The notes under the pieces: generated by a model
Told to the model about the DNA's origin: nothing
Databases searched by the model: none
The model's input: the letters and a program-made list of their open reading frames with translations, nothing else
Shown here: piece after piece, positions 11,594 through 11,637 of the stretch
How positions within the stretch are numbered: the first letter of the stretch is position 1
Layout: the number at the start of each line of letters is the position of its first letter
Origin: Escherichia coli
Lineage (GTDB): Bacteria > Pseudomonadota > Gammaproteobacteria > Enterobacterales > Enterobacteriaceae
Assembly: GCF_003334785.1 (NCBI RefSeq)
Contig: NZ_QOWV01000005.1
DNA length: 64,000 bases
Strand: one strand, 5' to 3'
Translations under genes and position numbers: made by a program

Positions 11594-11637
11594 TTAACCA
11601 TAAGCTAATGTGATGATCAATTTTACCTTATGGTTAA
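11594..11637. promoter_or_regulatory. perfect 11-bp inverted repeat TTAACCATAAG-N22-CTTATGGTTAA in the gcvT control region (candidate GcvA/other regulator site)
   Basis: Seen directly in the AT-rich region 140-180 bp upstream of gcvT ATG; contains CTAAT, the reported GcvA half-site motif. Confidence 0.4.

What the first reader, a model, noticed from the sequence alone, without database searches (positions are those of the whole stretch)
11594..11637. Perfect 11-bp inverted repeat in the gcvT control region
TTAACCATAAG-N22-CTTATGGTTAA lies in the AT-rich 440-bp upstream region known to integrate several regulators; the symmetric element includes a CTAAT motif. Its exact assignment to a published footprint cannot be made from memory.
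Basis: partly seen in the sequence, partly recalled or inferred. Interest (0 to 1): 0.3.

Follow-up and report, generated by a model that had tools for sequence, protein, structure and literature searches.

The report
Known GcvA operator at gcvT promoter
The inverted repeat is real, but it lies on an already well-studied regulator-binding site (GcvA "site 1") and the -35 region of the E. coli glycine-cleavage promoter, so it is ordinary rather than new.

Summary
TTAACCATAAG (11594-11604) and CTTATGGTTAA (11627-11637) are a perfect 11-bp inverted repeat with a 22-bp spacer, 14/15 if extended. It lies in the 447-bp ubiI-gcvT intergenic region of an E. coli K-12-like genome. Shuffling gives P about 0.005 for such a repeat in this region.

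I placed the gcvT start site at about 11668, using a conserved extended -10, the PurR box and a CRP-like site. The repeat then spans about -74 to -31. That matches the published GcvA "site 1" footprint (-69 to -34, from memory; the primary papers were not readable).

The left arm overlaps a T-N3-CTAAT-N3-A GcvA box (11601-11613). The right arm overlaps the -35 region.

Comparison across 80 Enterobacterales species shows that only the inner six bases of each arm (CATAAG / CTTATG) are conserved. The outer five bases pair only in Escherichia, and no compensatory changes occur. The right arm is conserved in all families at a fixed distance from the -10. The left block exists only in Enterobacteriaceae.

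The repeat is therefore a composite of two separately conserved protein-binding elements, not an RNA or DNA hairpin. It is already known and of low interest.

The parts
11594..11604 (.). Left arm of the perfect 11-bp inverted repeat (TTAACCATAAG), about -74 to -64. The inner CATAAG (11599-11604) is conserved. The outer TTAAC is specific to Escherichia.
11627..11637 (.). Right arm (CTTATGGTTAA), about -41 to -31. It overlaps the -35 region. CTTATGGTT is conserved in all Enterobacterales families sampled.
11601..11613 (+). T-N3-CTAAT-N3-A box (TAAGCTAATGTGA). This is the GcvA recognition box of site 1 and is centred at about -61.
   Evidence: The consensus 'T-N11-A containing CTAAT' is quoted.
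11599..11615 (+). Block CATAAGCTAATGTGATG, 90-100% conserved in 32 Enterobacteriaceae and absent from Erwiniaceae, Yersiniaceae and Hafniaceae.
11651..11659 (+). Extended -10 element TGgTAAGTT (TGnTAAnnT). It lies at a fixed 15-nt distance from CTTATGGTT in 71 of 80 species.
11668..11668 (+). Inferred gcvT transcription start (+1). It is inferred, not measured here.
   Evidence: Position of the conserved -10. The PurR box at 11667-11682 and the CRP-like site centred at 11354.5 fit the remembered footprints (-3/+17 and -313.5) only if +1 is about 11668.
11667..11682 (+). PurR-operator-like box AAGAGAACGATTGCGT. The consensus in other genera is AAGAGAACGTTTGCGT.
   Evidence: invariant columns
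11409..11421 (+). Upstream T-N3-CTAAT-N3-A box (GcvA site 3 equivalent, about -259 to -247). It lies 192-193 bp from the site-1 box in most species.
11441..11453 (+). Second upstream T-N3-CTAAT-N3-A box (GcvA site 2 equivalent, about -227 to -215).
11347..11362 (.). CRP-like site TTTGA-N6-TCACA centred at 11354.5 (about -313.5). Used only as a landmark.
   Evidence: read by eye
11773..12867 (+). gcvT coding sequence, the regulated gene.

Best explanation
The repeat marks GcvA-binding site 1 of the E. coli gcvTHP promoter together with the promoter's -35 region. [quoted passage not shown] The right arm (CTTATGGTTAA) sits at about -41 to -31, at the promoter-proximal end of the GcvA footprint and over the weak -35 of an extended -10 promoter. 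In the established model, GcvA bound here with GcvR, and looped by Lrp to GcvA at the two far-upstream CTAAT boxes, represses the promoter when glycine is low or purines are high. Activation depends on the upstream boxes. The symmetry most likely reflects two oppositely oriented contact sites for one GcvA oligomer. The perfect 11-bp match is a recent Escherichia-specific extension of a conserved 6-bp core (CATAAG-N22-CTTATG). Shown here: the sequence, its position, and the conservation pattern. Inferred: the exact +1, protein occupancy, and the role of the symmetry.
For: The locus is the ubiI-gcvT intergenic region of E. coli K-12. CTAAT occurs exactly three times in the 447 bp, all on the + strand and all in the register T-N3-CTAAT-N3-A. 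That box is found in the 4-kb gcvT loci of 78 of 83 loci, almost only at these upstream positions, with a constant 192-193 bp between the site-3 and site-1 boxes. Literature held in the library agrees. The GcvA consensus is T-N11-A containing CTAAT. GcvA protects a 35-bp and a 57-bp stretch upstream of gcvTHP, and CTAAT mutations affect binding and negative regulation. A paper title states that site 1 is required for repression but not activation. The GcvA/GcvR/Lrp repression-loop model is summarised. Phylogenetic footprint: CATAAGCTAATGTGATG and CTTATGGTT are 90-100% conserved while the flanks vary. CATAAGCTAAT-N17-CTTATGG is exact in 57 of 80 species. CTTATGGTT-N15-TGnTAAnnT is exact in 71 of 80. 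Within E. coli the 44 bp are identical in 96% of 5426 genomes, although only 18% are >=99% identical over the whole intergenic region. With +1 at 11668, the CRP-like site centre (-313.5), the PurR box (-1 to +15) and the three CTAAT boxes all fall inside the footprints I remember from the Stauffer laboratory papers.
Against: The primary footprinting papers (PMC177269, PMC93593) are not in the library, so the coordinates -69/-34 rest on my memory plus the '35 bp' statement. The +1 is inferred, and the -10 hexamer alone would place it at 11666-11668. The right arm is conserved in families that lack the site-1 CTAAT box, so its conservation may owe nothing to GcvA. The gcvB promoter's GcvA site has no CTTATGG-like element. 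No compensatory changes link the arms, so symmetry as such is not shown to be selected.
Confidence: 0.8

Rival explanations
1. The repeat is a coincidental composite. Two independently constrained elements, the Enterobacteriaceae-specific GcvA CTAAT block and an older -35-region element, happen to share a complementary hexamer. Drift in Escherichia then extended the match to 11 bp. On this reading the symmetry has no function of its own.
For: The outer five pairs are complementary in only 3-24% (72% for the outermost) of non-Escherichia Enterobacteriaceae. When one arm changes (Kluyvera, Atlantibacter), the other does not follow. The right arm is present without the left in Erwiniaceae, Yersiniaceae and Hafniaceae. 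One E. coli variant breaks the outer arm (TTATC) and keeps the core.
Against: Shuffles give only 0.5% for such a repeat in this region. The spacing CATAAG-N22-CTTATG is rigid in 57 of 80 species. The whole 44 bp is unusually invariant within E. coli.
Confidence: 0.35
2. The repeat forms a nucleic-acid hairpin. This could be an RNA stem-loop in a transcript reading through from ubiI or from the promoter-like site at 11476-11503, or a DNA cruciform. Its function would then come from the structure rather than from a protein-binding sequence.
For: Folded as single-stranded DNA it gives -7.3 kcal/mol, z = -3.6 against shuffles. A 10/12 sigma-70-like site lies upstream at 11476-11503.
Against: It lies upstream of the gcvT start. 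No Rfam family matches; the best hits have E of 0.3-0.7 and are far below gathering scores. It does not have terminator form. The stem is AT-rich with a 22-nt loop. The outer stem pairs are not conserved, part of the 'loop' (CTAATGTGATG) is the most conserved stretch, and there are no compensatory changes.
Confidence: 0.03
3. The symmetric element, or its ancient right half, is bound by a regulator other than GcvA. The right half is a perfect TTAAC-N5-GTTAA palindrome in Serratia, Hafnia and Erwinia mallotivora. The other regulator would compete or cooperate with GcvA at the -35 region.
For: CTTATGGTT is conserved beyond the -35 hexamer and in families without the site-1 CTAAT box. The gcvB GcvA site shows nothing similar.
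Against: No candidate protein or motif family was identified. The remembered GcvA footprint already covers most of this arm. The conservation can be explained by RNA polymerase contacts together with GcvA.
Confidence: 0.1

Closest known systems
GcvA binding site 1 of the E. coli gcvTHP promoter (Wilson, Urbanowski & Stauffer 1995; Wonderling, Urbanowski & Stauffer 2000)
   Same: Same organism, same promoter and same position (about -69 to -34). It contains the CTAAT / T-N11-A motif and overlaps the -35 region.
   Different: Nothing substantive. The 11-bp repeat extends about 5 bp upstream and 3 bp downstream of the remembered footprint. I could not check whether the authors pointed out the dyad.
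GcvA operator in the gcvA-gcvB intergenic region (two 15-bp ATTAG-N5-CTAAT dyads centred at -65 and -43; PMC5002191)
   Same: Same regulator. A CTAAT-type half-site lies near -60 to -65, and a second contact region lies next to the -35.
   Different: In gcvB the boxes are ATTAGTTTTTTTAAT and ATTATAAATTGTCCG. There is no long-range inverted repeat and no CTTATGG element. At gcvT, CTAAT sits in the centre of the T-N11-A box rather than forming its half-site.
Classical LysR-type RBS/ABS promoter architecture (recognition site near -65, activation site next to the -35)
   Same: Two subsites about 29 bp apart cover about -74 to -31. The distal one carries T-N11-A and the proximal one overlaps the -35.
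   Different: According to the title cited, this site serves repression, while activation comes from boxes about 190-220 bp upstream with Lrp-assisted bending. The two subsites are inverted copies of each other rather than two similar dyads.

Membership tests
GcvA (LysR-type) operator | T-N11-A box containing 5'-CTAAT-3' | tested here: met
   TAAGCTAATGTGA at 11601-11613 is in the same register as the boxes at 11409-11421 and 11441-11453. The consensus is quoted.
GcvA (LysR-type) operator | Located in the promoter of a GcvA-regulated gene, at the position of the published site 1 footprint (-69 to -34) | tested here: inconclusive
   The repeat spans -74 to -31 if +1 = 11668. The +1 is inferred from the conserved -10, the PurR box and the CRP-like site. 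The footprint coordinates come from memory; only '35 bp protected' is documented.
GcvA (LysR-type) operator | Bound by purified GcvA, with binding lost on CTAAT mutation | not testable with these tools
   Reported in the literature summarised. The primary papers are not held.
GcvA (LysR-type) operator | Box conserved in orthologous promoters | tested here: met
   The site-1 box is present at the same place in all sampled Enterobacteriaceae genera. It is absent from Erwiniaceae, Yersiniaceae and Hafniaceae.
Sigma-70 promoter core (-35 / extended -10) | Element at a fixed distance upstream of a conserved -10 | tested here: met
   CTTATGGTT-N15-TGnTAAnnT is exact in 71 of 80 species. TGGTTA lies 17 bp upstream of TAAGTT and matches TTGACA at 3 of 6 positions.
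Structured RNA / intrinsic terminator | Stem supported by covariation, or a GC-rich stem followed by a T-run, or a match to a known RNA family | tested here: not met
   No terminator-like site was found. No Rfam match approaches its gathering score. The outer pairs are unconserved and there are no compensatory changes.
CRP site | TGTGA-N6-TCACA dyad | tested here: not met
   TGTGA at 11610-11614 is followed, after 6 nt, by ATTTT, so there is no second half-site. The CRP-like dyad of this region lies at 11347-11362.

The most novel reading that the evidence does not exclude
The symmetry is functional. One GcvA (or GcvA/GcvR) oligomer reads two inverted CTWAT-like hexamers, CATAAG and CTTATG, 28 bp apart centre to centre. 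That geometry is unusual for a LysR-type regulator. Alternatively the ancient right-hand element, conserved across Enterobacterales in rigid register with the -10 and 218-219 bp from the upstream GcvA box, is the docking point for the looped upstream GcvA or for an unidentified factor.
Probability: 0.12. Interest if true: 0.35.

Novelty: already known. Interest (0 to 1): 0.1.

Why it matters
It matters little beyond annotation. The repeat is a landmark for a classical, experimentally dissected operator. The comparative data add two modest points. The site-1 CTAAT block is an Enterobacteriaceae addition to an older promoter-proximal element. The distance between the upstream GcvA box and the promoter element is kept at 218-219 bp across families, which fits the published DNA-looping model.

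Tried and rejected
- **Primary papers:** I tried to read the footprinting papers (PMC177269, PMC93593, DOI 10.1128/JB.181.6.1912-1919.1999, PMC11081524). None is held.
- **Full-text sequence search:** searching for the sequence of the element found nothing.
- **Measured start site:** I looked in genome-wide TSS supplements. One paper has no held files and the other's table is truncated well before this locus.
- **RNA element:** rejected on the Rfam search, the terminator scan and the conservation pattern.
- **CRP site at TGTGA 11610-11614:** rejected because there is no second half-site.
- **IHF-like ATCAA in the spacer:** rejected. The TTR part is missing and ATCAA is not conserved (ACCCA in most genera).
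- **ATTAG-N5-CTAAT dyad (from gcvB) on the left arm:** the expected left half is TAACC, which is a poor match.
- **CTTATGG-like element at gcvB:** none found.
- **Technical limit:** the loci from the genome scan were not visible to Python, so per-species statistics cover the 40 aligned sequences. Pattern counts cover all 80 loci.

Full report
**Observation**

The window reads TTAACCATAAG at 11594-11604 and CTTATGGTTAA at 11627-11637, with 22 nt between them. The repeat finder extends this to 15-nt arms (11594-11608 / 11623-11637) with one mismatch. CTAAT lies at 11605-11609, directly after the perfect left arm.

In 20,000 dinucleotide-preserving shuffles of the 447-bp, 36% GC intergenic region, a perfect 11-bp inverted repeat with a spacer of 40 or less appeared in 0.52% of trials. 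The whole window holds five such hits against 0.83 expected. The feature is therefore real and unlikely by chance for this region. Across a whole genome, a few such repeats would still be expected.

**Context**

The intergenic region 11326-11772 is 100% identical to E. coli K-12 MG1655 and is present in all 5426 complete E. coli genomes. The upstream gene is ubiI, which ends at 11325. The downstream gene is gcvT, with its ATG at 11773, followed by gcvH. RefSeq also annotates a small protein gene, yqfI, on the minus strand at window 11399-11482.

**Placing the promoter**

An alignment of 40 gcvT upstream regions from Enterobacterales shows four conserved blocks:
- CATAAGCTAATGTGATG (11599-11615)
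- CTTATGGTT (11627-11635)
- TGnTAAnnT (11651-11659), which is an extended -10
- a PurR-operator-like AAGAGAACG(A/T)TTGCGT (11667-11682)

From memory of the Stauffer laboratory papers, PurR protects -3 to +17 and CRP binds centred near -313. The PurR box here, and a TTTGA-N6-TCACA dyad centred at 11354.5, both fit those numbers if +1 is 11668. That position is also a reasonable distance from the conserved -10. On this scale:
- the repeat spans -74 to -31
- CTAAT lies at -63 to -59
- the other two CTAAT motifs of the region (11413, 11445) lie at -255 and -223

These positions fall inside the GcvA footprints as I remember them: site 1 at -69/-34, site 3 at -271/-242, and site 2 at -242/-214. The library could not supply the primary papers. 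A later open-access paper does state that GcvA protects stretches of 35 and 57 bp upstream of gcvTHP, that these share CTAAT, and that CTAAT mutations affect binding and negative regulation. A Stauffer laboratory paper gives the consensus as T-N11-A containing CTAAT.

**The GcvA box**

All three CTAAT motifs sit in one register, T-N3-CTAAT-N3-A:
- TAAGCTAATGTGA at 11601-11613
- TAAACTAATTTCA at 11409-11421
- TTTTCTAATGCCA at 11441-11453

I searched this 13-mer pattern in all 83 fetched loci, about 4 kb each. It hits almost only upstream of gcvT. The site-3 and site-1 boxes are a constant 192-193 bp apart in Enterobacteriaceae. The left arm of the repeat overlaps the 5' part of the site-1 box.

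**What is conserved in the repeat**

Per-pair analysis gives the following:
- The six inner pairs (CATAAG / CTTATG) are complementary in 91-100% of 32 Enterobacteriaceae.
- Two further pairs (AA/TT at 11607-8 / 11623-4) are complementary in 84-91%.
- The four pairs 11595-11598 / 11633-11636 are complementary in only 3-24% of non-Escherichia genera; the outermost pair (11594/11637) is complementary in 72%. Most genera read GGTCATAAG ... CTTATGGTT(T/A)A.
- Where one arm has changed (Kluyvera CCCGATGG, Atlantibacter GCGTGTGG), the other has not. There is no covariation.

CATAAGCTAAT-N17-CTTATGG is exact in 57 of 80 species. The right arm is the older element. CTTATGGTT-N15-TGnTAAnnT is exact in 71 of 80 species, including Erwinia, Pantoea, Serratia, Rahnella and Hafnia, which lack the left block and the site-1 CTAAT box. 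In Serratia, Hafnia and E. mallotivora the right element is itself a perfect TTAAC-N5-GTTAA palindrome.

Within E. coli the 44 bp are identical in 5229 of 5426 genomes. By contrast, only 991 genomes are >=99% identical over the whole intergenic region. One divergent strain has TTATC in the outer left arm and two changes in the spacer, and keeps the core.

**Mechanism**

The best-supported reading is that the element is GcvA site 1 plus the -35 region of an activator-dependent, extended -10 promoter. [quoted passage not shown] Repression involves a GcvA/GcvR complex and an Lrp-assisted loop, which glycine disrupts.

Across families, the upstream box and CTTATGGTT are a constant 218-219 bp apart although the DNA between them diverges. 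That fits such a loop.

What is shown here is position, motif content and conservation. Protein occupancy, the exact +1 and any role of the symmetry are inferred.

**Rivals**

- **Coincidental composite of two constrained elements.** This cannot be excluded. The lack of covariation and the lineage-specific outer arms support it. It does not change the identity of the site.
- **Hairpin function.** This is unlikely. The element is upstream of the start site. No RNA family or terminator matches. The 'loop' is better conserved than the outer stem. The DNA fold is only -7.3 kcal/mol.
- **A second, unknown protein on the ancient right element.** This remains possible but has no positive evidence. 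The gcvB operator of GcvA has no similar element.

**Verdict**

The finding is a correct observation in a classical, already characterised operator, so it is already known and of low interest. The comparative results refine the picture (Escherichia-specific perfection, a 6-bp conserved core, an ancient right arm, fixed long-range spacing) without overturning anything.

Noticed in passing
window 11399-11482 (minus strand): RefSeq annotates a 27-codon small-protein gene, yqfI, inside the gcvT control region. It lies directly over the two upstream T-N3-CTAAT-N3-A boxes (11409-11421, 11441-11453), so a coding sequence and the GcvA activation sites share the same DNA.
   Followed up: no
window 11476-11503 (+ strand): TTGACA-16-TATTGT is a 10/12 match to a sigma-70 promoter. 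It lies about 165 bp upstream of the inferred gcvT start, inside what I recall as the Lrp-bound region. If active, it would transcribe through the inverted repeat.
   Followed up: no
loci L002-L081, about 150-370 bp upstream of gcvT: The distance from the upstream T-N3-CTAAT-N3-A box to CTTATGGTT is 218-219 bp in Escherichia, Citrobacter, Erwinia, Pantoea, Rahnella, Rouxiella silvae and Mangrovibacter, although the intervening sequence diverges. Serratia (187 bp) and Hafnia (153 bp) differ.
   Followed up: partly
loci L016, L018, L021, L023, L025, L027-L032 (Enterobacter, Lelliottia, Pluralibacter, Silvania): In these genera the second upstream CTAAT box lies on the minus strand 22 bp after the first. 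In Escherichia it lies on the plus strand 32 bp after the first. The site-2 arrangement therefore differs.
   Followed up: no
window 11523-11590 versus L002 1251-1320: E. coli carries at least two clearly different alleles of the upstream part of the control region. 973 genomes are only 90-95% identical over the 447 bp. The divergence stops abruptly just before the inverted repeat.
   Followed up: partly
window 17300-17327, 46233-46267, 58246-58269: These are the three other loci in the window with perfect 11-bp inverted repeats and short spacers. The repeat at 58246-58269 is a 12-bp near-palindrome. Their nature was not examined.
   Followed up: no
window 11368-11393 and 11206-11218 / 11376-11388: ATCTCCCGG-N8-CCGGGAGAT followed by TTTTCC lies just after the ubiI stop and looks like the ubiI terminator. 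One arm also pairs perfectly over 13 nt with a segment inside ubiI, 157 nt upstream.
   Followed up: no
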